Virus record (IMG/VR): IMGVR_UViG_3300050145_000014
Origin: a virus
Lineage: Duplodnaviria > Heunggongvirae > Uroviricota > Caudoviricetes
Reading direction: 5' to 3' (one strand)
Length of the DNA stretch: 64,000 bases
The position numbers and the translations under genes were made by a program. The notes below the pieces were generated by a model. It was not told where the DNA came from, searched no databases, and saw only the letters and a list, made by a program, of their open reading frames with translations. Positions 8,877 to 43,986 of the stretch are shown here, in pieces (within the stretch, counting starts at the first letter, position 1; every line of letters begins with the position of its first letter).

Positions 8877-8981
8877 GCTGTCCTCGCTATTGCGTTGTTC
8901 GATGCCTGTATTATGCCTCAAACGAAAAAAGGGTCAAGCCCTTTCGAACTTGACCCTCCCTGGTGTTGTTATTTTACTACG

Positions 8982-9785
8982 TCAGTCTGAGATCCGCACT
9001 TGACCCTTGAAGTCAAAGGGGATGACAACAGTGCGTACCTTACCTTCGCGGATGCCTTGAGCGATAGCTTGACGGCTTTGTGCATCCATTAGGGCGATGC
9101 TGGCGGTGCTGTTGTTGGCTAGCGCTGCCATGCGCTTTGCCTCAGCTTCTGCAATCTGGATCTCTGTGTTCTTTCGCTTCAGGTCAGCTTCTGCACGGAC
9201 AGCAGCTACTGCAGCGGATAGGATCTCTTTGTTAGGAACTACAGACTTAATAGAGACTACAGAAATCTTAACTGCATGCCCTAGACCCTCTTTTTCCAGT
9301 TGATCAAAGATTGCCTTACCGATTTCAGTTTCCATTGCTTGACGATTATCCGCAATTGACAGTGCAGAGTAGTTTCGAATAGTTTTGTTTGACGCATTAC
9401 TCATAAGAGTTTCCATATAATTACGCATCAAAATAACATCACCACCCTCAACACGATGGAAACTCTTTGACTTCTTCGTGTACAATTCAGACACTGCCGA
9501 AGGTTCAATAGAGTACACAACAGAGATATCAAAGTCCTCCAAAGGGGTATTATCAGAAGTCATGTACTTCTTATCTTGTAGAAGAACTTCAATATCTCGA
9601 ATAGGGAACTCAAGAACATCACCAATCATGGTCTGGTGGAAACCGGTACCAGGGAGAAGTTCATTGCCCTCAACTTGCTTTGTGGCATCAATTCGGAGAC
9701 CAACAGTGCCAGTTTCGATACGAGTACAAGCCGAAGCAGAGATTGCCAAAACGATGATAGCAATAAACTTATAGAGAGTCTTCAT
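8982..9785 (-). CDS. SPFH/band-7 (stomatin/prohibitin-like) membrane-anchored protein
   Basis: N-terminal signal/anchor MKTLYKFIAIIVLAISASAC, a band-7 core, and an Ala/Glu-rich coiled-coil C-terminal half typical of SPFH proteins. Confidence 0.75.
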   Translation of the reverse strand: MKTLYKFIAIIVLAISASACTRIETGTVGLRIDATKQVEGNELLPGTGFHQTMIGDVLEFPIRDIEVLLQDKKYMTSDNTPLEDFDISVVYSIEPSAVSELYTKKSKSFHRVEGGDVILMRNYMETLMSNASNKTIRNYSALSIADNRQAMETEIGKAIFDQLEKEGLGHAVKISVVSIKSVVPNKEILSAAVAAVRAEADLKRKNTEIQIAEAEAKRMAALANNSTASIALMDAQSRQAIAQGIREGKVRTVVIPFDFKGQVRISD

Positions 9786-22262: not shown

Positions 22263-22337
22263 TGGTAGGGCTGCAGGGCCAACGATCCCTGATCTGATGG
22301 TTAAAAGCCATCTGCTTCACCTTAAAGCTTCAACCCC
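22263..22337 (-). tRNA. tRNA-Lys (anticodon UUU)
   Basis: Acceptor GGGGTTG/CAGCCCT + A + CCA; D-arm GCTT-TAAGGTG-AAGC; anticodon arm GATGG-CTTTTAA-CCATC; the T-loop is unusual (8 nt). Confidence 0.65.
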
Positions 22338-26010: not shown

Positions 26011-26964
26011 ATGCAAGACAATTTTAAAAGTATGCAACCATGCGACTGGTATGAAGACAAGGTAAAGTTCCCTTGTATCCTTCAACCAAAGATTGATGGT
26101 GTAGCGAGTTATAATCGATATGGGGCTCTTCTAGGTCGTAGTCTGAAGAAGCATGAGAATCGTTTTGCTACTGCGTTTTTCAGTCAGCAAGAGTATCATG
26201 GTTTTGGGGGTGAAATGACCTCTGGTGATAAACCAACTGGCGATGACCTATGCCGTATTACCTCTGGTGATCTTCGCCGTCGAGATACTGTGCATGATTT
26301 TTACTGGTGGTTGTTTGACTATGTCCCAGATGACTCTTATCTGAACATCTCGTACTTTGATCGGTATCATGCTCTTACGAATGCTATCAAGGAATTACCG
26401 GATCACCTAAAGACTCAACTGAAGATTATCCCTTCGCATATTGTAACAAATATGCAGGAGCTTCTAGACCTTGAAGAGATGTACCTGAACATGGGTTATG
26501 AAGGTGTTATTCTTCGTGATCCAAAAGCGGGGTATAAGTATGGACGTTGTGGTAAGACTTTCATGGGAGCATGGCGCATCAAGCGTTTCATTGATGCCGA
26601 ATTCCTGATCACAGAGATTCTTGAAGGTAATGAAAACCTGAACGAAGCAAAGATCAACGAATTAGGCCGAACTGAGCGTAGCACTCACCAAGAAAATATG
26701 AAGCCTAATGGGCTAGTTGGGACAATTCGCGGCACTCTCCTGGCTGATGTTGTAGACCCACAATCCAAGAAAATTCTTCTTGAAAAGGGCTTGACAATTG
26801 ACGTATCTCCTGGCAACATGCTGCACTCGCAACGTAAGCACTTCTTTGAGAACCCAGAAGAACTCCTGCAAAAGATTGGTAAGTTCAAGTTGTTCCCTAA
26901 GGGAATCAAAGACAAGCCTCGTTTTCCACAATTTATGTCAATTCGAAATGAGAATGATCTATGA
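26011..26964 (+). CDS. ATP-dependent DNA ligase
   Basis: Motif I ILQPKIDGV (KxDG), motif IV-like EGVILRD, C-terminal RFPQFMSIRNEND (motif VI-like); T7-type size. Confidence 0.8.
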   Translation: MQDNFKSMQPCDWYEDKVKFPCILQPKIDGVASYNRYGALLGRSLKKHENRFATAFFSQQEYHGFGGEMTSGDKPTGDDLCRITSGDLRRRDTVHDFYWWLFDYVPDDSYLNISYFDRYHALTNAIKELPDHLKTQLKIIPSHIVTNMQELLDLEEMYLNMGYEGVILRDPKAGYKYGRCGKTFMGAWRIKRFIDAEFLITEILEGNENLNEAKINELGRTERSTHQENMKPNGLVGTIRGTLLADVVDPQSKKILLEKGLTIDVSPGNMLHSQRKHFFENPEELLQKIGKFKLFPKGIKDKPRFPQFMSIRNENDL

Positions 26965-27118
26965 CCCTGCTTCCATTACTTATCATTATCCATTGTTAAT
27001 TGCTATAATCTTAAACATAGGGAGTACACGCGGAACACAACAGACCCGTTTAAAAGAAGGTCTACATATGCAAGGTAATATGCGACCCTTGGATTAAGAA
27101 TACTTAAAGGAAACACCA

Positions 27119-27343
27119 ATGAAATCTAAGAATCAAATGATTATTTTCAGTACTAGCATTGTAGCTATGGGATACTCTTTGCAAGATTTTGCATCCCTAG
27201 CTATTGATCTTGGCTTTTCACAAGAGCAGGCTCTAAAATTTGAGAGCTCTTTTAAAGAGTTTGGCACCCTCCTTGATAATATCACTTCTAAAGAAATCTC
27301 CGAAGCCTTCAAAGAAGCAATTCAAGAAATCATCAAGGACTAA
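27119..27343 (+). CDS. hypothetical protein (74 aa)
   Basis: ORF with an RBS. Confidence 0.4.
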   Translation: MKSKNQMIIFSTSIVAMGYSLQDFASLAIDLGFSQEQALKFESSFKEFGTLLDNITSKEISEAFKEAIQEIIKD

Positions 27344-27345
27344 AT

Positions 27346-28386
27346 ATGACAGAACGTAAACTAGCTACTATTCAAACCATTGACGAAATCTCTCCCATTG
27401 AAGGTGCAGCTTCAATTGAAGCTGCCCGAGTCGGTGGCTGGTGGGTTGTTGTTAAGAAGGGTGAATACAAGGCTGGCGGCCTTTGTGTTTACCTAGAAAT
27501 CGATTCTTTCGTGTCAAATGATCTCGCACCTTTCCTGACGAAGGCAGGCCATGAGCCTAAGGAATTCCGAGGTATCAAGGGTGAACGTCTGAAGACTATC
27601 CGCCTGCGTGGCCAAATCTCTCAAGGGCTTATCCTACCTATTTCTGTGCTTGACTACCTTGTTGAATCTGAGTATCTAGTTGGGCTAGATGTTACAGTCC
27701 CCCTAGGTATCATTAAGTGGGAACAGAAAGAACCTGCACAACTAGCAGGGAATGCTCGTGGTAACTTCCCTGCATTTATTCCAAAGACTGATCAAGAGCG
27801 TGTCCAGAACCTTCCTCGTCATCTAGAGAAGTGCAAGAATGCTGGTGATGAATGGGAAGTCACTGAGAAGCTTGATGGATCTTCTATGACTGTTTACGTT
27901 TCTGTGAGCAGTGAGAATATTTATCATGGTGTTTGCTCTCGTAACCTTGACTTGAAGGAAGATCTAAATAATTCTTTCTGGATGGCCGCCCGCCGCGAGA
28001 GCCTCCATGAAAAGCTAGAATACCAGATGCAATTTATCGGGCAAGTTGCAATTCAAGGTGAGCTAATTGGTCCGGGTATTCAAGGTAATCCCTATCACCT
28101 TGACAAGTTAGAATTCTACCTGTACGATGTATACCTGATTGAAAAGAAGCGTTATATGCTCCCTGAAGAGCGTAGCGTTTTTGCTGCATCTTTAGGTATT
28201 AAAGAATGCCCGTTCATTAGCGTAGCCTCTACACCAACAATTCAAGAAGCTTTGAATTCTGCTGAAGGGGCATCAATGATTAACCCTAAGACTCAACGAG
28301 AAGGGCTAGTCTTTAAGTCCATGACTCGTGACAATGACTCTTTCAAGGCTATTTCAAATGCTTGGTTAATTAAGACAGGAAAGTAA
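27346..28386 (+). CDS. ATP-dependent RNA ligase-like nucleotidyltransferase
   Basis: Motif I TEKLDGSS (KxDG) with a downstream EGLVFK motif IV-like and a Lys-rich C-terminal region; about 346 aa, typical of the phage/DRB0094-type RNA ligases. Confidence 0.6.
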   Translation: MTERKLATIQTIDEISPIEGAASIEAARVGGWWVVVKKGEYKAGGLCVYLEIDSFVSNDLAPFLTKAGHEPKEFRGIKGERLKTIRLRGQISQGLILPISVLDYLVESEYLVGLDVTVPLGIIKWEQKEPAQLAGNARGNFPAFIPKTDQERVQNLPRHLEKCKNAGDEWEVTEKLDGSSMTVYVSVSSENIYHGVCSRNLDLKEDLNNSFWMAARRESLHEKLEYQMQFIGQVAIQGELIGPGIQGNPYHLDKLEFYLYDVYLIEKKRYMLPEERSVFAASLGIKECPFISVASTPTIQEALNSAEGASMINPKTQREGLVFKSMTRDNDSFKAISNAWLIKTGK

Positions 28387-30983: not shown

Positions 30984-31050
30984 CAACAGGGAGCCCTTGC
31001 GGGCTCCCTTCTTTCATGGTAGGATCAGAAATTATCTTGTGAGGAGGATT

Positions 31051-32677
31051 ATGGACCCGTTTGGTTTTGTATTTGACATTGAAGCAGATGCACTGTACCC
31101 TGCTGTCAGTAAAATTTGGTATCTAAGGGTAACAGACCTTCAGGATGACTCCAAATTCTTAAAATTGTACCTAGAAGAGTCTTTCATCATTGAACCTGAT
31201 TCTTCCTCTTTCTTCGGTGAAGAAGGTCTCTTGAAGTTTCAAGAGTTTGTTGAAGCTTACCCTGAAGGTTTCTTTGTTGTTGGTCATAATATCTTGCAGT
31301 ATGATGTATGGGTGTTGTGGAAACTCTGGGGCCTGCAACCATTCATTGGTAAAGGCTCCTCAGACTGGTTTATGAACCGTAAGTGCCAGTTCATTGATAC
31401 ACGTTACCTGTCGATGTTCCTAAACCCGGACTTGCCAGGACACTCCCTAGAGGATTGGGGGCAACGAGTCGGTGAACCTAAGATGGATTACCGAGGGAAG
31501 TTAGTTGAGATTGGCGTCATGACAGGCGCCGAACCAGATGGTTTTGAATTCTCTTTCTGGAATCATTGGATGCAGAAATATTGCGATCAGGACGTAAAGA
31601 CTAATAAGAAAATCTTCCGTAGGATGTGGGAGAAGTTTGTAGAGCTTTACCCTGAAGGTATTCCTGAATCATATAAAGTCTCTCAGAAGGGTTTCTTCCT
31701 TATGGGGGCCCAAGAATTCACAGGGTACTCATTCAATAAGGAATACGCTCTAGAGCTTGAGATTGAAATCACTGAAATGATCGAGGAGATTGCTAAGGAG
31801 ATTGAGCCTAAACTTCCTCCAAGACCTTTGAAGAAAGGTGAAGAGAAAGATTATACAATGCCCGCCAAACCTTTCAAGAAAGATGGTAGCTTGTCGAGCC
31901 ACATGCTTAACTTTATTGAGAAGCATAATGCAGAGTTCTTAGGTGAAGGCAAGATCAGAGTATTTGAACGAATTGAAGAGATTGAGTCTAAGAAGCTGCT
32001 TGATATGAAGGTTCCTATGGAATTGAAAGATCAATCTGCTTTGAAGGACTACTTTCTAGAACTTGGTTGGGAGCCTGTTTACTATAATTACCAGAAAGAC
32101 GACAAGAATAAATTTGTCCGTGATGACCGTGGCAAGCTAATCGAGACAACACCTAAACTTCAGGAAGCTGGTAAACTAGACCCTGGGCTTGAAGATCTTG
32201 TTGGGGACATCCCTAAGAAGGTTGTTAAGTATCTTTCTCTGCGTAATCGTCTAGGTGTTCTGCAAGGGTGGATCAATCACCCCCGTATTGCGTTAGATGG
32301 GAGACTCCCAGCAAGAGCCTCAAAGATTACAAACACCCACAGACAGGCTCATAGCACAGTCTGTAACGTCCCTAAAGCAGAAGAGCAGGTCCTATTTGGT
32401 AAACAGTTTAGAAGCTTGTTTAGAGCCGAGGAAGGGTTCCTGTTGGCTGCAGCAGATGCCGTGGCAGGGGAAAACTTCACTGAGGCGCATTACACGCTCC
32501 CTTACCCTGGTGGTGAAGAGTATGTGAATGACTTGCTTTCAGGTGATCCTCACATCAAGAACGCATGTATCTTTTATCCCGATAAAATGCGTGGAATTGA
32601 TATTACTGTCCCTGGTGTAAAGGATGACCCAAAGGTTAAGCCTTGGCGGAGTAAGTCGAAGAATGGTAAGTATGCGT
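31051..32677 (+). CDS. family-A DNA polymerase, exon 1 (3'-5' exonuclease and polymerase N-terminal region up to motif B)
   Basis: Exo I motif FDIEADA with the RBS GAGGAGGA upstream; ...LSGDPHIKNA ... RSKSKNGKYAL aligns to Pol I [11 protein letters not shown] (O-helix) up to the splice point. Confidence 0.8.
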
Positions 32678-32934
32678 TAATCTAGGCGCATGTAAAACAG
32701 ATTGAATTCAGGGAACACCCTAACGTAAAGTCGAGGGCAATCCTGAGCTAAGTTAAATAAGAGATGATCTTATTTAGAAAGTGCAACGACTATCCCTTTA
32801 CGGGAGTAGAGCTAAGTAGCTCGAAGCGGTCTGCTAGGCCTAAGAAGCCTAGGTGATATAGTCTGCTCTTGTAGGAAACTACAAGCTGTGTTAACTCACG
32901 GGAGAGGTGTTACGAGCCTCTTTGAACATAAAGG
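32678..32934 (+). mobile_element. group I intron (257 nt, no ORF) interrupting the DNA polymerase gene
   Basis: P1: exon ATGCGU pairs with the intron IGS GCGCAU, giving a U.G at the splice site; P7 R/S elements GTGCAACGACTATCCC (32781-96) and GGTGATATAGTCTG (32851-64); a terminal G at 32934; splicing restores ...KYALTFGCSAGKLAKTL (motif B) in frame. Confidence 0.75.
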
Positions 32935-33452
32935 TAACCTTCGGGTGTTCTGCAGGTAAATTAGCTAAGACTTTAGGTGTCCCAGAAGCACAGAGTAAAA
33001 TGCTCTACGCCAATTTCTGGGATGGTAATCCAGCCTTGAAGGCTTTGAAAGAAGCTGTAGAGAAATACTGGAGTACAAAAGGTAATAAGAAGTATCTCCC
33101 TGGGCTTGACGGTAGAATGCTTTGCACTCGGAGTCAGCACAGTCTTTTAAACGTACTATTTCAATCTGCTCTAGCTATTATTATGGATTATGCACTTGCT
33201 ATCATGGACAAGAAACTAGGTATTCTTTATCTTGATGATAAAGGGAGGCCTTATTATCTGTATAAGGGGTATATTGTGAGACGGGTTGCATATGTCCATG
33301 ATGAGGCAGCTTATGAGTCTGAAGATCCTATAGCAGAAGAGGTTTCACAAATGCTTGCGACATCTATTACTGAAGCGTCAAAGTACCTGAAACTACGAGT
33401 GTTGTTAAAAGGGGAGGGTAAAGTTGGTAAAAACTGGAAAGAAACTCATTGA
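32935..33452 (+). CDS. family-A DNA polymerase, exon 2 (motif B tail, motif C YVHDE, C-terminal KNWKETH)
   Basis: VAYVHDEAAYE and the terminal G.NW.E.H are hallmarks of the Pol I family. Confidence 0.8.
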
Positions 33453-33972
33453 TTCATTCCCCTGGGCGGGTATCTTAAAGTATGATGAGTCATCCTGTAC
33501 AGGGTTGAGGTGGGTATCCGGGAGGCGCTCCGGGAAAGAGGCTGGAGGTCTTGATAGGGATATTCGGAGAGGTAAATACTCAAGATATCGTATAGTTAAA
33601 TTCGGTCAACACTTTCTCGCTCATCGTATTATATGGTATCTCATCTATGGATCAATTGACTCACTAAAAGACATCGACCATATTGATGGGAATGCCTGTA
33701 ACAATAAAATCGAGAACCTCAGACTTATTGATAAAGATCTTAATAGAAGAAATAGTGCTAAAAGATCCGATAATAAGTCAGGTAAAACAGGGGTGCGGCA
33801 AATGAAAGATGGCTCTTGGGAAGCCTCTATAAAGTGTAACCATGAAAAGTATAGGGCTAGTTTCTCAGGTAAGGGGTCTTTTGAATCAGCTTGTTTGTGG
33901 AGAGACTCAATGCTAAAGAAACTAAATTCGGAGTTTTCTGCAGGATTCACTGACCGGCATGGTGTTGCATAA
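33424..33972 (+). CDS. free-standing HNH homing endonuclease with an AP2-like DNA-binding domain
   Basis: IDHIDGNACNNKIENLRL HNH motif; the second half (WEASIKCNHEKYRASFSG) resembles an AP2 domain. Confidence 0.75.
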   Translation: MVKTGKKLIDSFPWAGILKYDESSCTGLRWVSGRRSGKEAGGLDRDIRRGKYSRYRIVKFGQHFLAHRIIWYLIYGSIDSLKDIDHIDGNACNNKIENLRLIDKDLNRRNSAKRSDNKSGKTGVRQMKDGSWEASIKCNHEKYRASFSGKGSFESACLWRDSMLKKLNSEFSAGFTDRHGVA

Positions 33973-34034
33973 AAACAACTTGACAAGATGGCTTAGGCCC
34001 TCTATCATCTGCTTAACTTATTTGAAAGGAATCC

Positions 34035-34841
34035 ATGATTAAGCTCTTTTATAAAGAACAAGAAGTCCCTGTGACTCTTTGGAAATTTCCCGGTGGTGAG
34101 ATTGGAGTAAAAATTTCTGAGATTTTCCCAGCTTCTCTCTACAATGGATACACAGTTGAAGTTCACTACCAAAATAGTGACGATATTTTCTATATGTTGA
34201 ATCTTGTAGATGCTTTGAAACGTGCTGGTGTGTCAAACAAACATATCATTGTGAAGATCCCCTATCTTCCATATGCTCGTCAAGATCGTGTATGCTCTCA
34301 AGGTGAAAGCTTTGCACTTGAAGTTTTCATGCAGGTATTGAAGACGATGGACGTAGAGATCTACTGCCTTGATCTCCATAGTGAAGTTGTGACAGATAAA
34401 TACCCCTGGGTCTACTCAACATCGCAACATTCTACCGCCTGGGATCTTTATGATTGCAACTTTGATGTCTATATCTCTCCTGATGCTGGGGCAAAAGAGA
34501 AAACCCACCAACACCGTGCTATTACCAGAGGCAAGGCTTCTGTTGTTTCTTTGCAAAAAGAACGTGTAGGCCCTGCAGTTGTGTACAAGCATGAAGAACA
34601 TGATACAATCAAGGGTCGTTGCATCGTTGTAGATGATATTTGCGATGGTGGTGCAACCTTTGTGTCTCTAGCTGAAATGCTGAAGCGTACTCAGCCAAAC
34701 ATCACAGAACTTTCGTTGTATGTAACCCACGGTATCTTTTCCAAGGGGATTGACAAGCTCAAGGAGTTGTATGACAATATCTACACTGCAAACTTGATGA
34801 ATGCTTCTGTAGCAGATCAAGTTACTGTTCTAACTCGTTGA
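34035..34841 (+). CDS. prs: ribose-phosphate pyrophosphokinase (PRPP synthetase) homolog; could be an Adps-type enzyme
   Basis: IPYLPYARQDR and the PRPP-binding VVDDICDGGAT motifs; 268 aa, shorter than cellular Prs. Confidence 0.75.
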   Translation: MIKLFYKEQEVPVTLWKFPGGEIGVKISEIFPASLYNGYTVEVHYQNSDDIFYMLNLVDALKRAGVSNKHIIVKIPYLPYARQDRVCSQGESFALEVFMQVLKTMDVEIYCLDLHSEVVTDKYPWVYSTSQHSTAWDLYDCNFDVYISPDAGAKEKTHQHRAITRGKASVVSLQKERVGPAVVYKHEEHDTIKGRCIVVDDICDGGATFVSLAEMLKRTQPNITELSLYVTHGIFSKGIDKLKELYDNIYTANLMNASVADQVTVLTR

Positions 34842-34851
34842 AAGGAAATCA

Positions 34852-36558
34852 ATGTCTATTGCACTAAATCCAGCCCTGGCGTGTGACTTCTATAAGGTTG
34901 GTCACAAGTTCCAGTACCCAGAAGGTACGGAAATGATCTATAGTAATTTCACCCCGCGTTCAGCAAAGCTTTTCAAGAGCGAGAGTTTCAAAGGTGAAGT
35001 AACCAACTTTGGCCTGCAAGGTTTTGCTCGATGGTTCTTGATTGATCACTGGAATAACTACTTCTTCAACCTACCTAAGCAAATTGTTGTAGCCGAGTAT
35101 TCTCGTGTCGTGAACACTGCCCTGGGTATGGAAGTCCCTACTGATCACATTGAAGCCCTGCATGATCTAGGCTATCTCCCTGTTCAAATCAAGGCTCTCC
35201 CTGAAGGTGCTGGTGTCCCTATTAAGGTTCCTGTGTTCACTATTAAGAACACTGACAAACGTTTCTTCTGGCTAGTGAACTACATCGAAACTGTTCTGTC
35301 TTCAGATAACTGGAAGTCTATTACCAATGCAACTATTGCATTTGAATATCGTGTTCTCCTAGAGAAGTGGGCAGAAGTTACTGGTTCTCCAAAGGAATTT
35401 GTCCTGTGGCAGGGACACGATTTCTCTGCGCGTGGTATGTCTGGTATTTTTGATGCCACTGCCTCAGGTGCAGCGCACTTGACTAGCTTCCTGGGAACTG
35501 ATACAATCCCTTCGATTAACTACCTTGAAGCTTACTACGAGGGTCAGCAGACTTTTGTGGGTGGTTCAGTTCCTGCCAGTGAACACTCGGTCATTTGCGC
35601 TGGCGGTCAAGAATCTGAGATTGAAACCTTCCGTCGAATTCTGAAGACTTACCCTACTGGTGTTGTCAGTATCGTTTCTGACACATGGGATTTCTGGAAT
35701 GTTATCACCAATATGGCAACTGAACTCAAGTCTGAGATCATGTCTCGTCAACCTAATGCAATTGGTTTGGCAAAGACTGTCTTCCGTCCTGACTCTGGCG
35801 ATCCTGTGGAAATTCTGTGTGGTATTGAGATTCAGGAAGTTGAGAGTATCGAAGACGCAGAAGAAATCCTAAAAGACTCTGATGAGTGGGAAGATGGTGA
35901 AGACTATGGTCCTCAGGAGTTGTCAGGTGTTTTCCGAATTGATGGTCAAGTTATTGAAGTGACTGTAGCCCCTTGGTGGAATCGTCACGACAAGCGTTTC
36001 TATTACATTGATGGTTGGCAAGAAACTAAGTCTAAGGAAGTTACTCTGACTCCTGAACAAAAGGGCGCTGTAGAATGCCTGTGGGATATCTTCGGCGGTA
36101 CAGTGACTGACAAGGGCTTCAAGGTTCTAGATAGTCATGTTGGACTAATCTATGGCGACTCTATTACCCTAGAACGTGCTGATCAAATCATGTCACGTCT
36201 TGCAGCCAAGGGCTTTGCCTCTTGTAATGTTGTGTTTGGTATCGGTTCATATACTTATCAGTACAACACCCGTGATACTTTCGGTATGGCTATGAAAGCG
36301 ACTTATGCCATCGTGAATGCCGAAGGTCGTGAACTATTCAAAGACCCTAAGACCGATTCTGGTACTAAGAAGTCTGCTAAAGGTTTGCTACGAATTGAAC
36401 TGGAAGAGGGTAAGTACGTTCTGTATGACCAACAAACTCCAGAGCAAGAGGCTCAAGGTGAACTGAAGACTGTCTTCTGTGATGGTAAGATGTTTAACCA
36501 GCAGAGTATTATGGGTATCCGTGACCTTATCAATGATCGGATTGCTAAACAAGTCTAA
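34852..36558 (+). CDS. nadV: nicotinamide phosphoribosyltransferase (NAMPT/NadV) homolog with an approximately 90-aa insertion; could be a Namat-type enzyme
   Basis: N-terminal CDFYKVGHKFQYP and C-terminal FGIGSYTYQYNTRDTFGMAMKATY match the NAMPT family; 568 aa against about 480 typical. Confidence 0.75.
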   Translation: MSIALNPALACDFYKVGHKFQYPEGTEMIYSNFTPRSAKLFKSESFKGEVTNFGLQGFARWFLIDHWNNYFFNLPKQIVVAEYSRVVNTALGMEVPTDHIEALHDLGYLPVQIKALPEGAGVPIKVPVFTIKNTDKRFFWLVNYIETVLSSDNWKSITNATIAFEYRVLLEKWAEVTGSPKEFVLWQGHDFSARGMSGIFDATASGAAHLTSFLGTDTIPSINYLEAYYEGQQTFVGGSVPASEHSVICAGGQESEIETFRRILKTYPTGVVSIVSDTWDFWNVITNMATELKSEIMSRQPNAIGLAKTVFRPDSGDPVEILCGIEIQEVESIEDAEEILKDSDEWEDGEDYGPQELSGVFRIDGQVIEVTVAPWWNRHDKRFYYIDGWQETKSKEVTLTPEQKGAVECLWDIFGGTVTDKGFKVLDSHVGLIYGDSITLERADQIMSRLAAKGFASCNVVFGIGSYTYQYNTRDTFGMAMKATYAIVNAEGRELFKDPKTDSGTKKSAKGLLRIELEEGKYVLYDQQTPEQEAQGELKTVFCDGKMFNQQSIMGIRDLINDRIAKQV

Positions 36559-36567
36559 GGAGAAAAG

Positions 36568-37398
36568 ATGAACCTGCTAGTTGGATCAAGGGCTTTAGCT
36601 TATTGGGATAAGTCCTTCCAAGTAAAGGAAGATACTGATTGGGATGTTATCAGCCCTGAGCCTCTAGCAGGTTGCGAATGGCATAATCCAGGTATTTTGA
36701 ATAACGCTAAAATGCTTGAGTATGCTGAAATTGACCAAGTAATTGGCCCAAATAATACAGTCCTGAGAGTAATGGACCCATACGGGTTAGCTATCATGAA
36801 AAGATCTCATCTTTGGAGAAGCTTAAGCTTTGAGAAGCACATCACGCACTACCATAAGCGTCTGGCCAGCTATCTGGAATATTTCTCTGCGTATGACTTT
36901 GAGGTTTTAGATGAGCGAACTCGCTTAACTCATGAGCAGTATCCTCAAAAGTGCCCTAAGCTAAACGTCTCTGTCAATGAGTTCTTTGATGACTATGTTA
37001 CGAAGAAATTCAACCATGACTGGTTACATGAAGTTGTTGCGTATCACCAACAGCCTCTTTACAAGTTACTCCAAAATGATGTAGAATCTGCTTGGTGCAA
37101 TTTAGATCTCTGGAAGAAGCTCTCTTATAGAGATAAGGTTCTTTGCGTAACTGAAGAGGTTACTGTCATTGCTGTTGAGAGATTTCTAGTCCCAACAGAC
37201 TGGCAAACACCGAGCAAACTAGCCTTCATGAAATCACTAGAGAAAGTCTGTACAACCCTCTGTTCAGGGTGGTTTAGAGATTTTGCTATTGATAATTACC
37301 CTCAAATCGTCCAGGAATTCTCTCAGGAGCGATTCCTAAGAATTAAACAAACAATTGATAACGCACTGAAAGGAAACTATGCCAAACTCAACGCTTAA
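36568..37398 (+). CDS. hypothetical protein (276 aa) downstream of the prs/nadV pair; no NMNAT HxGH motif
   Basis: ORF with a strong RBS; no motif recognised. Confidence 0.45.
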   Translation: MNLLVGSRALAYWDKSFQVKEDTDWDVISPEPLAGCEWHNPGILNNAKMLEYAEIDQVIGPNNTVLRVMDPYGLAIMKRSHLWRSLSFEKHITHYHKRLASYLEYFSAYDFEVLDERTRLTHEQYPQKCPKLNVSVNEFFDDYVTKKFNHDWLHEVVAYHQQPLYKLLQNDVESAWCNLDLWKKLSYRDKVLCVTEEVTVIAVERFLVPTDWQTPSKLAFMKSLEKVCTTLCSGWFRDFAIDNYPQIVQEFSQERFLRIKQTIDNALKGNYAKLNA

Positions 37399-37741
37399 AC
37401 AAACTATTTCTGAAATCCTCACTAAAGATGATGAAGCTCAACGTAACTTTTTTAATCAAGAAGTCGACGCGACCAACGGTGATATCACTGATGGGTATTC
37501 TAGTGAAAGTCGGTTCACCTTCCTAGATAACGGTATTACTTTCAAGGAAGAAGATTCCCACGGTGGTGAAGGGCAAGGTGAAGAATACTGGACAGTATAT
37601 TCTTTCACAAAGGGTGATGAGAAGGTCTTTGTGAAGTTCGAGGGCTCATACCAGTCATACAGTGGAGCTGAATACGATGACTTCTATTTTGTAGAGCCTC
37701 AAGAAAAGATGATTACAGTTTATGTAAAGACGGAAGGTTAA
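37379..37741 (+). CDS. hypothetical protein, paralog A of a tandem pair
   Basis: WTVYSFTKGDEKVFVKFEGSYQSYSGAEYDDFYFV closely matches the next ORF. Confidence 0.45.
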   Translation: MPNSTLKQTISEILTKDDEAQRNFFNQEVDATNGDITDGYSSESRFTFLDNGITFKEEDSHGGEGQGEEYWTVYSFTKGDEKVFVKFEGSYQSYSGAEYDDFYFVEPQEKMITVYVKTEG

Positions 37742-37742
37742 T

Positions 37743-38081
37743 ATGTCAAATCAAGAATTTAAAACAGAACTCCTAGAAATTCTAGGTAAGACGCCACGAG
37801 TGTCTCTAAATTCCTTCTTGACTGCTCAAATCCTAGGAACCTCCTACAAGTCAAGACTGAAAGAGTTTGACTTGAACAATATCCAAGTTGCACTAGAGGC
37901 CCGTTACGGTGGCGAGGATATGGGGACAGACTATTGGAGTGTCTTTAAGTTCACAAAAGGTCAGGAAGAAATCTATGTACAATTTGTAGGATTCTACGGG
38001 TCTTATGATGGTGCAGAGTATGATCATTTCCTAATTGTGGCCCCACGAGAAGTGACTGAAACAAAGTACTTTGCTGCTTGA
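37743..38081 (+). CDS. hypothetical protein, paralog B of the tandem pair
   Basis: WSVFKFTKGQEEIYVQFVGFYGSYDGAEYDHFLIV. Confidence 0.45.
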   Translation: MSNQEFKTELLEILGKTPRVSLNSFLTAQILGTSYKSRLKEFDLNNIQVALEARYGGEDMGTDYWSVFKFTKGQEEIYVQFVGFYGSYDGAEYDHFLIVAPREVTETKYFAA

Positions 38082-38166
38082 CATCACCCAAAAGCAGTGT
38101 ATAATTCACTTCCCGAGTTGAAAGACTACTCGGAATTTCTAAAGTAATCGCGTAAGGAGAAAACAA

Positions 38167-39159
38167 ATGGCATTTAACGCACGAGGCGTAACAAAGAACG
38201 AATCAAAATCTGAAACTGCAGTAGACTATGATGCACTGAACAAGTACGTTGTAGAGGCTGCTAACCTACAGGAACGTGAAACCCTGATTGGCTACGTGTC
38301 TTCAATTGTAGACCTAGGTCTACAAGAGCAGGAAGATGCTAAGGTAGAGTTCAGCGGCTCATCAGAAGATGAATCAAGTATCATTGCCGACAAGCCTGAT
38401 ACTTATTTCGAGACAGGTCCAGATGAAAAGGGTAGTGTAAAGCGTTGGAAGCGCTGGCCTCAGAAACCTGCTCAAGCTGTAGCAGTATCTGTGGACTTTC
38501 CTGATATCATTGTAGACAAGGGTCAATTCTTTGGTAATTCAAAGCCCCTCCCTCTACGTCTATGGATGGGTGGTCAGTTCTTCATCCAAGGTGTAGGTAT
38601 GGTTGTTGGTCGTCCTACAATGCTAAAGATCAATAAGAGTTCAGGCTTCTGGTCTTTTGATAAGAAGCACCTATTCCACAAGATGGCTGTAGCTGCAAAA
38701 CTGGTCAAGGCTGACGAAGCTTTCCTACCTCAGAACATTGATGACCTCCTAGGTAAGGCTTTCCAGTTTCAAGTCCAAGTATTCTTCAAAGAATCAAAGG
38801 GCAAGGAATACTACACCGAGTACATCAATTTTCAAGGCGGCCTAGGTCGTGGTCAAGTAGCTCCTGAGCCTCTGACACCACCTTTTACCATTCAGTTTAC
38901 TGAACCTAATAGTGCAGAAAACCTGAAGGAAATTCGTAATCATGTTATGAATACACTAAAGCGTGCTGGTGACTTTGAGGGTAGCGTAATCCAGTCTCAA
39001 CTATTAGCCCTAGACTCTGCAAAGCAAGAGCAAGAAGACCCTAAAGCACAATCTGCTGCCACTACTGCACCTAAGCCTGCAGCGAAAGTAGGTAAGCCTG
39101 TTGTGAAGAAGACAGCGGCTCCAGCTTTTGACGACATGGATGATGACATCCCGTTCTAA
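38167..39159 (+). CDS. ssb: single-stranded DNA-binding protein with a bacterial-type acidic C-terminal tip
   Basis: Ends ...AAPAFDDMDDDIPF (the canonical SSB DDDIPF tail) preceded by an Ala/Lys/Pro-rich linker; the N-terminal domain is divergent. Confidence 0.6.
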   Translation: MAFNARGVTKNESKSETAVDYDALNKYVVEAANLQERETLIGYVSSIVDLGLQEQEDAKVEFSGSSEDESSIIADKPDTYFETGPDEKGSVKRWKRWPQKPAQAVAVSVDFPDIIVDKGQFFGNSKPLPLRLWMGGQFFIQGVGMVVGRPTMLKINKSSGFWSFDKKHLFHKMAVAAKLVKADEAFLPQNIDDLLGKAFQFQVQVFFKESKGKEYYTEYINFQGGLGRGQVAPEPLTPPFTIQFTEPNSAENLKEIRNHVMNTLKRAGDFEGSVIQSQLLALDSAKQEQEDPKAQSAATTAPKPAAKVGKPVVKKTAAPAFDDMDDDIPF

Positions 39160-39199
39160 TATCTAAACCCTAGGTCTCTATTCAGGTAGAGCCCTGAGT

Positions 39200-39273
39200 C
39201 TCTCCATAACTCAATTGGATAGAGTAACTCCCTTCTAAGGAGTAAGTTAGAGGTTCAAATCCTCTTGGAGAGA
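39200..39273 (+). tRNA. tRNA-Arg (anticodon UCU); 3' CCA not encoded
   Basis: Full cloverleaf read: acceptor CTCTCCA/TGGAGAG, D-arm ACTC-AATTGGATA-GAGT, anticodon arm ACTCC-CTTCTAA-GGAGT, T-arm AGAGG-TTCAAAT-CCTCT, discriminator A. Confidence 0.8.
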
Positions 39274-39306
39274 CTCAGGGCTTTACCTAATTTTAAAAGG
39301 AATTAT

Positions 39307-39462
39307 ATGAAACTTATCCGTGCTATCTTTTCAGGTATCATATTCATTATCGGTTTTGCACTAGCTATTCTTGGTGTAATTACCTCTCTCCCAGGAAAGG
39401 TAATCCAAACTATTGGCCTTATTCTTGTAGGGTTTTCTGCAGGTATCCTCGTAGGCTTTTGA
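39307..39462 (+). CDS. small membrane protein (2 TM); start placed at MKLIRAIF
   Basis: The listed ORF 39265..39462 would begin inside the tRNA; the internal Met removes that overlap. Confidence 0.35.
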   Translation: MKLIRAIFSGIIFIIGFALAILGVITSLPGKVIQTIGLILVGFSAGILVGF

Positions 39463-39526
39463 CATGAAGCGATACCAATCTCTACTCGATGCTCTAAATA
39501 AAATCCAAACCAAGTAAAGGAAACTC

Positions 39527-39778
39527 ATGACTGAATCTACAGAAACCCCTGAACCGATGACCGCAGAACAACTCTTTGAAAAGTTTGTAGTTATCTTCAA
39601 CGAGATCGAAACCCTTGATCTAGACATCAAGGAGCTTACCGAGCAAGCCAAGGAGGACGGCATCGAAGATATTACACTGATCAAGTCAGTTGCCCGAGCA
39701 AAAGCACAAGGCAAGGTATCTGCTGAAGAAGAAAAGCTTAAGAAGAAGCTAGAAAAAATCGAAGAACTGGTTAAGTAA
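39527..39778 (+). CDS. acidic coiled-coil small protein
   Basis: ORF with an RBS. Confidence 0.4.
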   Translation: MTESTETPEPMTAEQLFEKFVVIFNEIETLDLDIKELTEQAKEDGIEDITLIKSVARAKAQGKVSAEEEKLKKKLEKIEELVK

Positions 39779-39786
39779 CCAGTCTA

Positions 39787-39820
39787 ACCCCCTGACCTTA
39801 ACCGTCAGGGGTTTTTCTTA
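39787..39820 (+). terminator. rho-independent terminator (ACCCCCTGAC-loop-GTCAGGGGGT followed by TTTTTCTT)
   Basis: A 10-bp GC-rich stem and T-run read directly. Confidence 0.6.
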
Positions 39821-39839
39821 TTTATCTGGAGGATTTAAA

Positions 39840-40238
39840 ATGTATTGTTATTATGGTGCTGACCGACTTGAGAAACTTACCACGGGGTTTATCTTTGTAT
39901 ACGGGTCTAATCTAGCTGGACGTCATGGATCAGGGGCAGCCTTAACTGCAAGAACAAACTTTGGAGCAGAGTACGGATATGGTATTGCTTTTACTGGTGG
40001 GCAATCTTATGGTATCCCGACAAAAGATGAGAATATCAAGACAATCTCTCTGACAGCTATTGAGTGCTTTGTAAAGAAGTTCAAACAAGATGCAAGGAAT
40101 CACCCTGATCTTACCTTTATTGTAACTAAAGTCGGATGCGGCCTAGCTGGGTACAAGGATGCTCATATTGCGCCTATGTTTAGAGGGAGCCCTGATAATT
40201 GCCGGTTCCATCAAGATTGGAAAGAATATCTAGAATAA
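39840..40238 (+). CDS. hypothetical protein with a Gly-rich motif VYGSNLAGRHGSGAA
   Basis: ORF with an RBS; the motif is reminiscent of Rossmann-like nucleotide-binding (SLOG/LOG-like) folds but is unassigned. Confidence 0.4.
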   Translation: MYCYYGADRLEKLTTGFIFVYGSNLAGRHGSGAALTARTNFGAEYGYGIAFTGGQSYGIPTKDENIKTISLTAIECFVKKFKQDARNHPDLTFIVTKVGCGLAGYKDAHIAPMFRGSPDNCRFHQDWKEYLE

Positions 40239-42487: not shown

Positions 42488-42494
42488 GGTGCTT

Positions 42495-42872
42495 ATGTCA
42501 ACAGGGAAACCAGTAAATCCTTGGAACCCTTTTCCAATTCCTGAGTTCAAGAGAGAGGTGCAGGTAACTAAATATGATTCAGGTAAGCCTCAGTTCGACC
42601 TGATACCTGCAAAAGCCCTGGAAAAAGTTGCAGAGCTTCTTACCCTAAATCTCAAGAAGTACCCTGACCGAGATAATTGGAAGAAGCTTGAGAACAATAA
42701 GGAAAGGTTCTTCCAGTCTCTTTTGAGACATATCAATAAACACCAACAAGGTGAACTTTATGACAAAGAGTCTCTTGACCCAACTACGCTGCATCTAACT
42801 GCAATTATTACAAATGCATTATTCTTACTAGAGATGCAGGTAAACCCGGACTACAATAAAGGATTAGAATAA
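42495..42872 (+). CDS. protein resembling the N-terminal domain of dATP/dGTP diphosphohydrolase (dGTP_diPhyd_N-like)
   Basis: KPQFDLIPAKALEKVAELL ... LHLTAIITNALFLLE pattern recalled for that family. Confidence 0.45.
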   Translation: MSTGKPVNPWNPFPIPEFKREVQVTKYDSGKPQFDLIPAKALEKVAELLTLNLKKYPDRDNWKKLENNKERFFQSLLRHINKHQQGELYDKESLDPTTLHLTAIITNALFLLEMQVNPDYNKGLE

Positions 42873-42873
42873 T

Positions 42874-43986
42874 ATGGAAGTTAAATTAGTAGGATATACA
42901 CAACCATCCGAGGAATTCAAGGGTGATTTCAGTTCAGTAAAAGATCTAATTGCCTATTGTGCAAGAGTGAGTAATCCTAGTAATCAATTTAATACTGAAA
43001 CTACAGACAAGTTAATTAGCTACCTACTCAAGCATAAGCATTTCTCCCCATTTGAAATGGCTAGTGCAACTATCGAGATTACAACTACACGAGATATTGC
43101 ACGGCAAATTCTACGCCATCGTAGTTTCACTTTTCAGGAGTTTTGTATTGCAGGTGATTCTAAAATCACGACACTTGCAAAAAGCGGAAGATCAAAAAAA
43201 ATACAGATTAGAGACCTCTATGAAAGGTACTCAAATAAAGTAAATTGGGATAAGTCAGATAATCTTGTAAGAGTGTTTGATGAAGCTTCTAAGACGTTTG
43301 TACCAGTGAAAATCAAAGAGGTTTTCAAGACAGGTGTGAAGCCTGTTTATGAACTTATTCTTGAGAACGGTAAAAAGGTTATCTCAACTAAGGAGCATAA
43401 ATTCCTCTCTCGTAGGGGGTTTTTACCTTTAGAGGATCTATACGATGATGATTTCATTGGATGCAGTGTTGTGTCTGTTTATCAGCCTGTCTGGAGTAAG
43501 ATAAAGAGTATCAAGTTTAAAGGTTTTGAGGAAACCTATGACATGGAGGTTGAGCATTCATCACACAACTATATTGCAAACGGGGTTGTTACTCATAACA
43601 GTCAAAGATACGCCGATCCTCGGCAATTAGGTTTTGTTATTCGTGAAACCCGTCTACAGGATTTGAAGAATCGTCAGAATAGTATCGGACTAGATCCTCT
43701 AGATATTGATGGCTATAATCTTGATCAAGAGTGGAAACGACGCCAACAAGAAGTCCTAGATATTGTCAAGGAAAACTACGCATGGGCTATTGAAAACAAT
43801 ATTGCCAAGGAACAAGCCCGAGCAATCCTCCCTGAAGGTAATACAGTTTCTCGTATGTACATGCAAGGGACTATCCGTAGTTTTATTCATTACATTGAAC
43901 TTCGCCGTGAAGAGGGTACCCAGAGAGAACACCAAGATGTTGCGATTGCTGTAGGTAAAGCTATCAGTAAAATCTTCCCTGTATAA
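42874..43986 (+). CDS. thyX: flavin-dependent thymidylate synthase ThyX, interrupted by a mini-intein
   Basis: ThyX signature RHRSFTFQEF | intein | SQRY (RHR-X7-S motif split exactly at the insertion). Confidence 0.8.
   Translation: MEVKLVGYTQPSEEFKGDFSSVKDLIAYCARVSNPSNQFNTETTDKLISYLLKHKHFSPFEMASATIEITTTRDIARQILRHRSFTFQEFCIAGDSKITTLAKSGRSKKIQIRDLYERYSNKVNWDKSDNLVRVFDEASKTFVPVKIKEVFKTGVKPVYELILENGKKVISTKEHKFLSRRGFLPLEDLYDDDFIGCSVVSVYQPVWSKIKSIKFKGFEETYDMEVEHSSHNYIANGVVTHNSQRYADPRQLGFVIRETRLQDLKNRQNSIGLDPLDIDGYNLDQEWKRRQQEVLDIVKENYAWAIENNIAKEQARAILPEGNTVSRMYMQGTIRSFIHYIELRREEGTQREHQDVAIAVGKAISKIFPV
43144..43599 (+). mobile_element. mini-intein (152 aa, Hint domain only, no homing endonuclease domain) inside thyX
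   Basis: Begins CIAGDSKI (block A), has TKEHKF (block B), ends DMEVEHSSHNYIANGVVTHN (blocks F/G) followed by the +1 Ser of SQRY. Confidence 0.8.

What the first reader, a model, noticed from the sequence alone, without database searches (positions are those of the whole stretch)
34035..37398. Adjacent PRPP-synthetase-like and NAMPT-like genes: candidate phage NAD+ reconstitution/salvage module against NAD-depleting immunity
A 268-aa Prs homolog (YLPYARQDR, VVDDICDGGAT) is followed 10 nt later by a 568-aa NAMPT/NadV homolog, with no NMN adenylyltransferase (HxGH) gene in the vicinity. This two-gene architecture matches the phage 'NAD reconstitution pathway 1' described by Osterman et al. 2024: an Adps that pyrophosphorylates ADPR, plus a Namat that joins ADPR-PP and nicotinamide. 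That pathway lets phages rebuild NAD+ after Thoeris, DSR, SIR2-HerA or SEFIR cleave it. The alternative is a classical PRPP+NadV salvage step that would need a host NMNAT. The NAMPT homolog carries an approximately 90-aa acidic insertion (EVESIEDAEEILKDSDEWEDGEDYG...) absent from canonical NadV. The downstream 276-aa ORF has no recognisable motif and may be a third component.
Basis: partly seen in the sequence, partly recalled or inferred. Interest (0 to 1): 0.8.

Follow-up and report, generated by a model that had tools for sequence, protein, structure and literature searches.

The report
Phage NAD+ rebuilding gene pair (NARP1)
Two adjacent genes in an uncultivated phage of about 82-84 kb are an ordinary member of the known NARP1 pathway, which rebuilds NAD+ from ADP-ribose and nicotinamide after bacterial immunity destroys it; the third gene is an unrelated backbone gene.

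Summary
ORFs 34035-34841 (268 aa, Prs-like) and 34852-36558 (568 aa, NAMPT-like) lie 10 nt apart behind a sigma70-like promoter.

- **NAMPT-like protein:** it is a Namat. Its best solved relative is SPbetaL1 Namat 9W5X. It carries the published Namat signature (GSYTYQYNTRD). It nests among validated Namats, 100% bootstrap apart from NARP2-type Nampts.
- **Prs-like protein:** it is Adps-like. It is short, lacks the Prs C-terminal helices, and has the PP loop DDICDGGATF (ICP1 Adps: DDICDGAASF). It falls below every NCBIfam Prs cutoff.
- **Other NAD genes:** no NMNAT, Nudix, Macro or RyR gene was found in about 72 kb of the roughly 82-84 kb genome.

This is a new member of the known NARP1 system, which occurs in about 4% of phages.

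Two side claims fail.

- **Third ORF:** it is a DUF7275 protein with a MenT-like nucleotidyltransferase fold. Relatives keep it with or without NARP1, so it is a backbone gene.
- **Acidic insertion:** it is about 70-77 aa, not 90, and it is common in Namats.

One minor new point: the insertion is an unannotated autonomous domain (core NRHDKxYYYxD). It also occurs as stand-alone small phage proteins.

The parts
33980..34008 (+). Sigma70-like promoter (TTGACA-17-TATCAT, 11/12) in the 62-nt gap between the HNH endonuclease gene and adps
   Evidence: This is a consensus match only; function was not shown.
34035..34841 (+). adps: ADP-ribose pyrophosphokinase (PRPS-like), 268 aa
   Evidence: PP loop D200-D201-I-C203-D204-G-G-A-T-F209. 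Catalytic K175 lies in a KxR motif. R82, H115 and D150 are conserved. The Prs C-terminal alpha11-alpha12 is missing. TIGR01251 scores 103 bits, below the cutoff of 113.
34852..36558 (+). namat: nicotinamide ADP-ribose transferase (NAMPT fold), 568 aa
   Evidence: Sequence search: 9W5X at E=6e-160. Foldseek: 9W5X at E=1e-56, TMt 0.93. SCH motif G465-S-Y-T-Y-Q-Y-N-T-R-D475. The core residues R312, D314, H245, D217, F191, R194 and Y14 are invariant in the alignment.
35827..36057 (+). Insertion domain inside Namat (aa 326-402): acidic helix plus a five-strand beta unit, with core motif WNRHDKRFYYIDG
   Evidence: (pLDDT 86-95). The domain has no Pfam, PHROG or PDB sequence match and also occurs as stand-alone ORFs.
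36568..37398 (+). Adjacent but NOT part of NARP1: DUF7275 protein with a Pol-beta/MenT-like nucleotidyltransferase fold, 276 aa

Best explanation
The two genes are a NARP1 cassette.

Proposed mechanism, inferred by homology:
- After a host NADase effector (TIR, SIR2 or SEFIR type) splits NAD+ into ADP-ribose and nicotinamide, Adps transfers the beta-gamma pyrophosphate of ATP to the 1'' hydroxyl of ADPR. This gives ADPR-PP plus AMP.
- Namat then displaces the pyrophosphate with nicotinamide and regenerates NAD+ directly, with no NMN intermediate and no NMNAT.
- The phage can therefore replicate in hosts that carry NAD+-depleting defences.

The cassette has its own promoter-like site. It sits as an accessory insertion between the DNA polymerase gene (plus a homing HNH gene) and a conserved DUF7275 backbone gene.

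Shown here: family membership by sequence, structure prediction, phylogeny and gene context. Inferred: the chemistry and the anti-defence role.
For: Namat:
- The best solved relative is SPbetaL1 Namat 9W5X/9W5W. Sequence search gives E=6e-160 against 1e-60 for human NAMPT. Foldseek gives 1e-56 with TMt 0.93. The PDB identity is given in PMC12774641.
- The published Namat-specific motif is GSX-phi-X-phi-X-phi-TRD with aromatics at positions 3 and 7. The window has GSYTYQYNTRD. NARP2-type Nampts have GGGLLQ(Q/H)(L/C)DRD.
- In an NJ tree the window protein nests with the SPbetaL1, FADO, ICP1 and Felixounavirus Namats. Three Nampts split off with 100% bootstrap.

Adps:
- It is 268 aa and ends where validated Adps end; E. 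coli Prs has about 29 more C-terminal residues.
- Its PP loop DDICDGGATF resembles ICP1 DDICDGAASF rather than Prs DDMIDTGGTL.
- F18, R82, H115, D150, D200, D201, D204 and the KxR lysine are conserved.
- It falls below all NCBIfam Prs cutoffs, as does the biochemically validated ICP1 Adps (103 and 98 bits against a cutoff of 113).
- It separates from gammaproteobacterial Prs with 97% support.

Context:
- In the 80 best IMG/VR Namat loci, 76 have an Adps-type gene just upstream and none has a NadM-like gene. Osterman et al. report 97% Adps-Namat linkage.
- No NMNAT, Nudix, Macro or RyR Pfam hit was found in the window or in 7.8 kb of flanks.
Against: - There is no experiment on these proteins.
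- The Adps family is so divergent that pairwise BLAST places the window protein nearer to E. coli Prs (68 bits) than to SPbetaL1 Adps (47-57 bits). phrog_619 barely separates them (220 bits against 193 for E. coli Prs).
- ICP1 F92, an adenine contact, is Cys87 here. The position also varies among validated Adps.
- The catalytic beta-hairpin is 3 residues shorter.
- In the Namat selectivity loop the third residue is Lys39 but the fourth is Leu40, with Phe41 next. The stacking residue is therefore unclear.
- The Prs outgroup was only gammaproteobacterial.
- The closest INPHARED relative of this Namat (63% identity) sits in an Acinetobacter chromosomal prs-nadV-nadM operon.
- H. ducreyi NadV is nearly as close structurally as Namat.
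- About 10-12 kb of the genome was not seen.
Confidence: 0.86

Rival explanations
1. Classical salvage. The Prs-like enzyme makes PRPP, the NAMPT-like enzyme makes NMN from nicotinamide, and a host NMNAT (NadD, NadR or NadM) finishes NAD+ synthesis.
For: - Namat retains about half of human Nampt's NMN-forming activity in vitro.
- The closest INPHARED relative lies in a bacterial prsA_2-nadV-nadM operon.
- The NCBIfam 'equivalog' NF006629 covers both types.
- H. ducreyi NadV solved with NMN is a close structural match.
Against: - The selectivity-clamp helix carries the full Namat aromatic signature, which Nampts lack.
- The Prs-like protein has the Adps PP loop and fails all Prs thresholds.
- SPbetaL1 Adps made no product from ribose-5-phosphate-type substrates, and Bas63 NARP1 works in a pncC nadR deletion host.
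- The Acinetobacter operon proteins themselves carry Namat and Adps signatures.
Confidence: 0.08
2. Three-gene system. The DUF7275 protein is a third NARP1 component, for example a nucleotidyltransferase that feeds or completes the pathway, by analogy with Adpp or RyDEP.
For: - Its start lies 9 nt after the namat stop, with no terminator between them.
- It has a nucleotidyltransferase fold with an invariant GS/DxD motif.
- NARP1 operons are known to recruit accessory genes.
Against: - Of 40 related loci with at least 3.5 kb upstream of DUF7275, only 7 carry NARP1.
- In NARP1-less relatives DUF7275 follows the DNA polymerase gene by 52-1355 nt.
- It is always followed by the o120/o112 paralogues instead.
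- Of the 80 best Namat loci, only the 9 closest to this phage have DUF7275 nearby.
- DUF7275 occurs in unrelated phages and in giant viruses.
Confidence: 0.03

Closest known systems
NARP1 (Adps + Namat) of phages SPbetaL1, Bas63, FADO and ICP1 (NrsAB)
   Same: - Same two-gene order with tight spacing.
- Same Namat SCH signature.
- Same Adps PP loop and C-terminal truncation.
- Same clades.
- No NMNAT.
   Different: - 25-30% identity to validated Adps and 44-45% to SPbetaL1 Namat.
- The Namat carries a 70-77 aa insertion that the solved SPbetaL1 structure and the ICP1 protein lack. A Felixounavirus Namat has a longer insertion at the same site.
- The Adps hairpin is 3 aa shorter.
- The host phage is an uncultivated siphovirus-like genome of about 82-84 kb.
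NARP2 (KVP40-type Nampt + Nmnat/Nudix)
   Same: The NAMPT fold and the catalytic core residues. Both counter NAD+ depletion.
   Different: - NARP2 Nampts have GGGLLQ..DRD in place of the aromatic SCH.
- They have no Adps partner and sit with an Nmnat. Examples are ValS_X1 and the L236 island.
- The window protein is only 31-33% identical to them and is separated by a long branch.
Bacterial chromosomal prs-nadV(-nadM) operons, seen here in an Acinetobacter contig; bacterial NARP1 of Paenibacillus foliorum; H. ducreyi NadV (9KE8/9KEO)
   Same: - The Acinetobacter NadV is the closest INPHARED relative (63% identity).
- It shares the QPNAxGLAK mini-insert and the Namat SCH type, and its partner has the PP loop DDICDGGATF.
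   Different: - These operons are chromosomal and include NadM.
- They have no large insertion.
- H. ducreyi NadV has GAQTYQRNTRD, with no aromatics at positions 3 and 7, and was solved with NMN.
NARP1-AP (Adpp macro-domain phosphatase) and RyDEP (RyR-domain glycosidase) extensions
   Same: The concept of accessory genes attached to NARP1.
   Different: No Macro or RyR domain was detected in the window. The neighbouring gene has a different fold and is not linked to NARP1.
MenT/AbiEii-type nucleotidyltransferases (for the DUF7275 neighbour only)
   Different: - Only 12-14% identity.
- It has a distinct, larger helical C-terminal half with its own invariant residues.
- There is no antitoxin context.
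- The substrate is unknown.

Membership tests
NARP1: Namat | NAMPT fold with the conserved catalytic core (equivalents of SPbetaL1 R306, human R311, H247 and D219) | tested here: met
   AF2 pLDDT 91. Foldseek 9W5X at 1e-56. R312, D314, H245, D217, F191, R194 and Y14 are invariant in 51 homologues.
NARP1: Namat | [quoted passage not shown] | tested here: met
   GSYTYQYNTRD at aa 465-475. Nampt controls have GGGLLQQLDRD or GGGLLQHCDRD.
NARP1: Namat | Selectivity-clamp loop whose third residue is R, K or Y and which supplies an adenine-stacking residue | tested here: inconclusive
   The loop reads S37-A38-K39-L40-F41. The third residue is Lys, as in Bas63-type proteins, but the fourth is Leu, with Phe one position later. 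Resolving this needs a ligand-bound model.
NARP1: Namat | Phylogenetic placement in the Adps-associated clade, distinct from the Nmnat-associated Nampts | tested here: met
   NJ tree of 30 sequences and 483 columns. The Nampt split has 100% support in 200 bootstraps. This is a small tree and not maximum likelihood.
NARP1: Namat | ADPR-PP + nicotinamide gives NAD+, with preference over PRPP | not testable with these tools
   Requires a biochemical assay.
NARP1: Adps | PRPS-like two-domain protein that lacks the Prs C-terminal alpha11-alpha12 module | tested here: met
   The protein is 268 aa. The alignment ends together with ICP1, SPbetaL1 and Felixounavirus Adps, while E. coli Prs extends about 29 aa further.
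NARP1: Adps | Remodelled PP loop used for ATP donor binding (ICP1 C215-S220, F221) | tested here: met
   DDICDGGATF compared with ICP1 DDICDGAASF. Seven Prs sequences all have DDMIDTGGTL.
NARP1: Adps | Catalytic lysine on the beta-hairpin (ICP1 K185, SPbetaL1 K162) | tested here: met
   K175 lies in a KxR motif (KER) that matches KIR, KQR, KVR and KRR in the references. One MAFFT run shifts the register by a few positions, and the hairpin is 3 aa shorter.
NARP1: Adps | ADPR adenine contacts F18, R87 and F92 (ICP1 numbering) | tested here: inconclusive
   F18 and R82 are conserved. F92 corresponds to C87 here. This position is S, S and M in SPbetaL1, FADO and Felixounavirus Adps, so it does not define the family.
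NARP1: Adps | Outside housekeeping Prs families and adjacent to Namat | tested here: met
   The protein is below the cutoff of all 11 NCBIfam Prs models. It splits from Prs with 97% support. It lies 10 nt upstream of namat.
NARP1: Adps | ADPR + ATP gives ADPR-PP + AMP | not testable with these tools
   Requires a biochemical assay.
NARP2 | Nampt-type enzyme together with an Nmnat gene in the same genome | tested here: not met
   The SCH is of the Namat type. No CTP_transf_like or NUDIX hit was found in the 64-kb window or in 7.8 kb of flanks. About 10-12 kb of the genome was not seen.
NARP1-AP / RyDEP-extended NARP1 | A Macro-domain ADPR-1''-phosphatase or a RyR-domain glycosidase in the operon | tested here: not met
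   There was no Macro or RyR Pfam hit among 60 further window ORFs or among the seven ORFs from 34035 to 40238 scanned individually.
Pol-beta-like nucleotidyltransferases (for the DUF7275 neighbour) | NTase core fold with a G[SG] motif and carboxylate DxD motifs | tested here: met

The most novel reading that the evidence does not exclude
The 70-77 aa insertion in this Namat, and in most other Namats, is an autonomous and so far unannotated domain. It consists of an acidic helix and a five-strand beta unit, and N, R, D, K, Y, Y and D are invariant within NRHDKxYYYxD.

Where the domain occurs as a stand-alone protein of about 110-125 aa with an N-terminal coiled coil:
- three NARP1-less relatives of this phage;
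- several unrelated phages;
- one jumbo-phage contig (L236), where its gene overlaps the stop of a NadR-like gene inside an island of NadM, PnuC, NadR and Nampt genes.

Proposed reading: the domain could bind or regulate an NAD+-related metabolite, or act as a protein-docking element that phages deploy either fused to Namat or in trans.
Probability: 0.25. Interest if true: 0.5.

Novelty: new member of a known kind. Interest (0 to 1): 0.24.

Why it matters
The finding adds one more uncultivated phage lineage to the roughly 4% of phages that carry NARP1.

It shows the cassette behaving as a self-promoted accessory insertion at a fixed site between the polymerase gene and DUF7275. This helps in predicting which relatives can overcome NAD+-depleting defences such as type I Thoeris, DSR, SIR2-HerA and SEFIR.

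It does not change what is known about the pathway.

The one loose end worth a specialist's time is the conserved insertion domain. No solved Namat structure contains it, and the NARP1 papers read here do not discuss it.

Tried and rejected
- **DUF7275 as a NARP1 component.** Rejected on gene-context counts.
- **phrog_619 and phrog_448 as discriminators.** Rejected. E. coli Prs scores 193 bits against 220 for the window protein. A KVP40-like Nampt scores 548 against 659.
- **Pairwise BLAST for Adps versus Prs.** Uninformative.
- **Homology between the Namat insertion and the downstream o120/o112 paralogues (phrog_8206).** hhalign probability 0.1%; rejected.
- **Insertion profile against PDB sequences, Pfam and PHROGs.** No match.
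- **A general link between stand-alone insertion-domain genes and NAD genes.** Only 1 of about 9 loci (L236) shows it. The others sit among replication genes.
- **Recovering the rest of the genome.**
  - Two metagenome contigs pattern scans found nothing.
  - The 2013-aa tape-measure protein is not on record.
  - Only 3.1 kb to the right and 4.7 kb to the left were recovered.
- **No close DNA relative in INPHARED**.
- **The afdb50 fold library was unavailable**.
- **A guessed accession for Bas63** turned out to be Bas51. The Felixounavirus phage humlepung was used instead. That Bas63 belongs to that genus is my own recollection and was not verified here.
- **A Biopython bootstrap run timed out** and was redone with numpy.
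Full report
**Observation**

The three ORFs are exactly as described.
- 34035-34841 (+): 268 aa, with YLPYARQDR and VVDDICDGGAT.
- 34852-36558 (+): 568 aa.
- 36568-37398 (+): 276 aa.

The spacers are 10 and 9 nt, and each start has an RBS. A sigma70-like promoter (TTGACA-17-TATCAT) lies at 33980-34008, directly upstream of the first gene.

The window is a phage genome.
- It encodes a primase-helicase, a family A DNA polymerase interrupted by an HNH gene, ribonucleotide reductase, ThyX, ligases, two tRNAs, and tail genes including a 2013-aa tape measure.
- Identical proteins occur on JGI and Logan metagenome contigs of 81.8-84.2 kb.
- No INPHARED phage is similar at the DNA level.

**The 568-aa protein is a Namat**

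- Among solved structures the best sequence match is 9W5X/9W5W (E=6e-160). Next come 9KE8 (5e-138) and human NAMPT (1e-60).
- PMC12774641 identifies 9W5X/9W5W as SPbetaL1 Namat.
- The AF2 model (pLDDT 91) gives the same order by Foldseek: Namat at 1e-56 with TMt 0.93, then H. ducreyi NadV at 1.5e-49, then NAMPT at 4e-39.
- That paper defines a Namat-specific selectivity-clamp helix, GSX-phi-X-phi-X-phi-TRD, with adenine-stacking aromatics at positions 3 and 7.
  - The window protein has GSYTYQYNTRD.
  - SPbetaL1 and FADO have GSFTYQYNTRD.
  - A KVP40-like Nampt and a Nampt adjacent to NadM have GGGLLQQLDRD and GGGLLQHCDRD.
- In an NJ tree the protein nests among validated Namats. Three Nampts split off with 100% bootstrap.
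- The catalytic-core residues are invariant.
- The variable clamp loop (S-A-K39-L-F41) is compatible with the published pattern but not decisive.

**The 268-aa protein is Adps-like**

The ICP1 Adps structure paper lists the distinguishing features: a remodelled PP loop used for ATP, a catalytic hairpin lysine, and loss of the Prs alpha11-alpha12 and allosteric sites.
- The window protein ends where Adps proteins end.
- It has DDICDGGATF. ICP1 has DDICDGAASF, and all seven Prs sequences sampled have DDMIDTGGTL.
- It keeps F18, R82, H115, D150, D200, D201 and D204, and a KxR lysine at K175.
- It fails all NCBIfam Prs cutoffs, with almost the same score as ICP1 Adps.
- It separates from Prs with 97% support.

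Caveats:
- Pairwise scores and phrog_619 do not discriminate.
- ICP1 F92 is Cys here.
- The Prs outgroup was narrow.

**Context**

- Of the 80 best IMG/VR Namat loci, 76 have an Adps-type gene immediately upstream and none has a NadM-like gene. This matches the published 97% linkage.
- Pfam scans found no CTP_transf_like, NUDIX, Macro or RyR domain. The scans covered 27 ORFs of at least 150 aa, 33 ORFs of 80-149 aa, and the local genes.
- The recoverable flanks hold only tail genes on the right, and PhoH and ClpP-type genes on the left.
- tblastn with two NadM proteins gave only noise.
- About 10-12 kb of the genome, presumably head and packaging genes, could not be retrieved.

**The third ORF**

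- It matches Pfam DUF7275 (7e-53).
- AF2 gives pLDDT 91.
- G6, S7, D24 and D26 are invariant, so this is a Pol-beta-like nucleotidyltransferase fold.
- It is not tied to NARP1.
  - Of 40 related loci with enough upstream sequence, only 7 carry NARP1.
  - Where polymerase-DUF7275 synteny is visible, the gap is 52-1355 nt without NARP1 and 3.8-4.6 kb with it.
  - DUF7275 is always followed by the o120/o112 paralogues.
  - It also occurs in unrelated phages and in giant viruses.
- NARP1 is therefore a cassette inserted upstream of a backbone gene.

**The insertion**

- Relative to SPbetaL1 Namat the window protein has extra residues at 326-402. The PDSGD..FGG spacer is 96 aa here, against 27-28 aa in the SPbetaL1, FADO, ICP1 and Acinetobacter proteins.
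- Long spacers are the rule, not the exception. Spacers of 90 aa or more occur in 89 of the 118 top homologues measured, and spacers of 70 aa or more in 51 of 73 viral loci. The shared core is WNR(H/Y)DKxYYYIDG. A Felixounavirus Namat has a longer insertion at the same site.
- AF2 predicts a helix plus five strands with pLDDT 86-95.
- A profile of the insertion matches nothing in PDB sequences, Pfam or PHROGs.
- The papers read here do not mention the insertion.
- A search of 1.84 billion representative proteins with the insertion alone found complete stand-alone ORFs of 119 and 125 aa.
- A profile search of the held loci found further stand-alone copies in three NARP1-less relatives of this phage and in other phages.
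- In one 353-kb contig the stand-alone gene overlaps the stop of a NadR-like gene. It lies inside an island of NadM, PnuC, NadR and Nampt genes.
- The other stand-alone copies lie among replication genes, so a link to NAD+ metabolism remains only a lead.

**Comparison and verdict**

This is NARP1 as described by Osterman et al., who found it in 859 phage genomes, or 4.3%. Later work added structures for both enzymes, and the known accessory extensions Adpp and RyDEP are absent here.

The closest INPHARED relative of the Namat is a mislabelled Acinetobacter chromosomal contig with a prsA_2-nadV-nadM operon. Its proteins also carry Namat and Adps signatures. This is consistent with published reports of bacterial NARP1.

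The finding is a correctly interpreted, ordinary new member of a known system. Its only mildly novel element is the autonomous insertion domain.

Noticed in passing
window 30997-33972: The family A DNA polymerase gene is split into an N-terminal ORF (30997-32685) and a C-terminal ORF (32907-33452). An HNH_3 homing-endonuclease ORF (33424-33972) overlaps the end of the second piece. Some relatives have the two polymerase parts contiguous.
   Followed up: partly
window 42874-43986: The ThyX (Thy1) gene has an Intein_splicing hit in the middle, so it appears to be an intein-containing thymidylate synthase. Upstream, 42489-42872 carries a dATP/dGTP diphosphohydrolase N-terminal domain.
   Followed up: no
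window 22263-22337 (-) and 39200-39274 (+); 26011-28386: The phage encodes tRNA-Lys(UUU) and tRNA-Arg(UCU), together with an ATP-dependent DNA ligase and an RNA ligase (PHA02142 OB-fold). This could be a tRNA replacement and repair toolkit against anticodon nucleases.
   Followed up: no
window 37379-37741 and 37743-38081: These are two tandem paralogous small ORFs (phrog_8206, function unknown). They follow DUF7275 in nearly all 46 related loci. hhalign shows they are unrelated to the Namat insertion.
   Followed up: partly
window 38078-38105: A perfect 12/12 sigma70 consensus promoter (TTGACA-16-TATAAT) lies just upstream of the 330-aa phrog_2544 ORF (38167-39159).
   Followed up: no
L052 (CAKLQF020000015.1, 'Acinetobacter phage MD-2021a'): This INPHARED 'phage' record is a bacterial chromosomal contig with iron ABC transporter, AraC and efflux genes. 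It carries a prsA_2-nadV-nadM operon. Its NadV has the Namat motif GSFTYNYLTRD, and its Prs paralogue has the Adps PP loop DDICDGGATF. It therefore looks like a chromosomal NARP1-like pair joined to an NMNAT/Nudix gene.
   Followed up: partly
L236:685-13077 (IMGVR_UViG_3300020045_006153, 353 kb): This is a jumbo-phage NAD+ island. In order it holds NadM-like (NMNAT+Nudix), PnuC, NadR-like, a stand-alone homologue of the Namat insertion domain (8905-9234, overlapping the NadR stop), two unknown ORFs, a Nampt with GGGLLQQCDRD, and a nucleoside 2-deoxyribosyltransferase-like gene.
   Followed up: partly
L022:8204-8557, L023:2996-3361, L024:5248-5601: NARP1-less relatives of this phage carry a stand-alone 111-118 aa protein 1.4-2.2 kb downstream of their DUF7275 gene. 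It consists of a coiled coil followed by the NRHDKTYYYVD domain.
   Followed up: partly
window 39840-40238: This 132-aa ORF (phrog_2072, function unknown; N-terminal FVYGSNLAGRHGSGAA motif) has no Pfam hit and no PDB sequence hit.
   Followed up: partly
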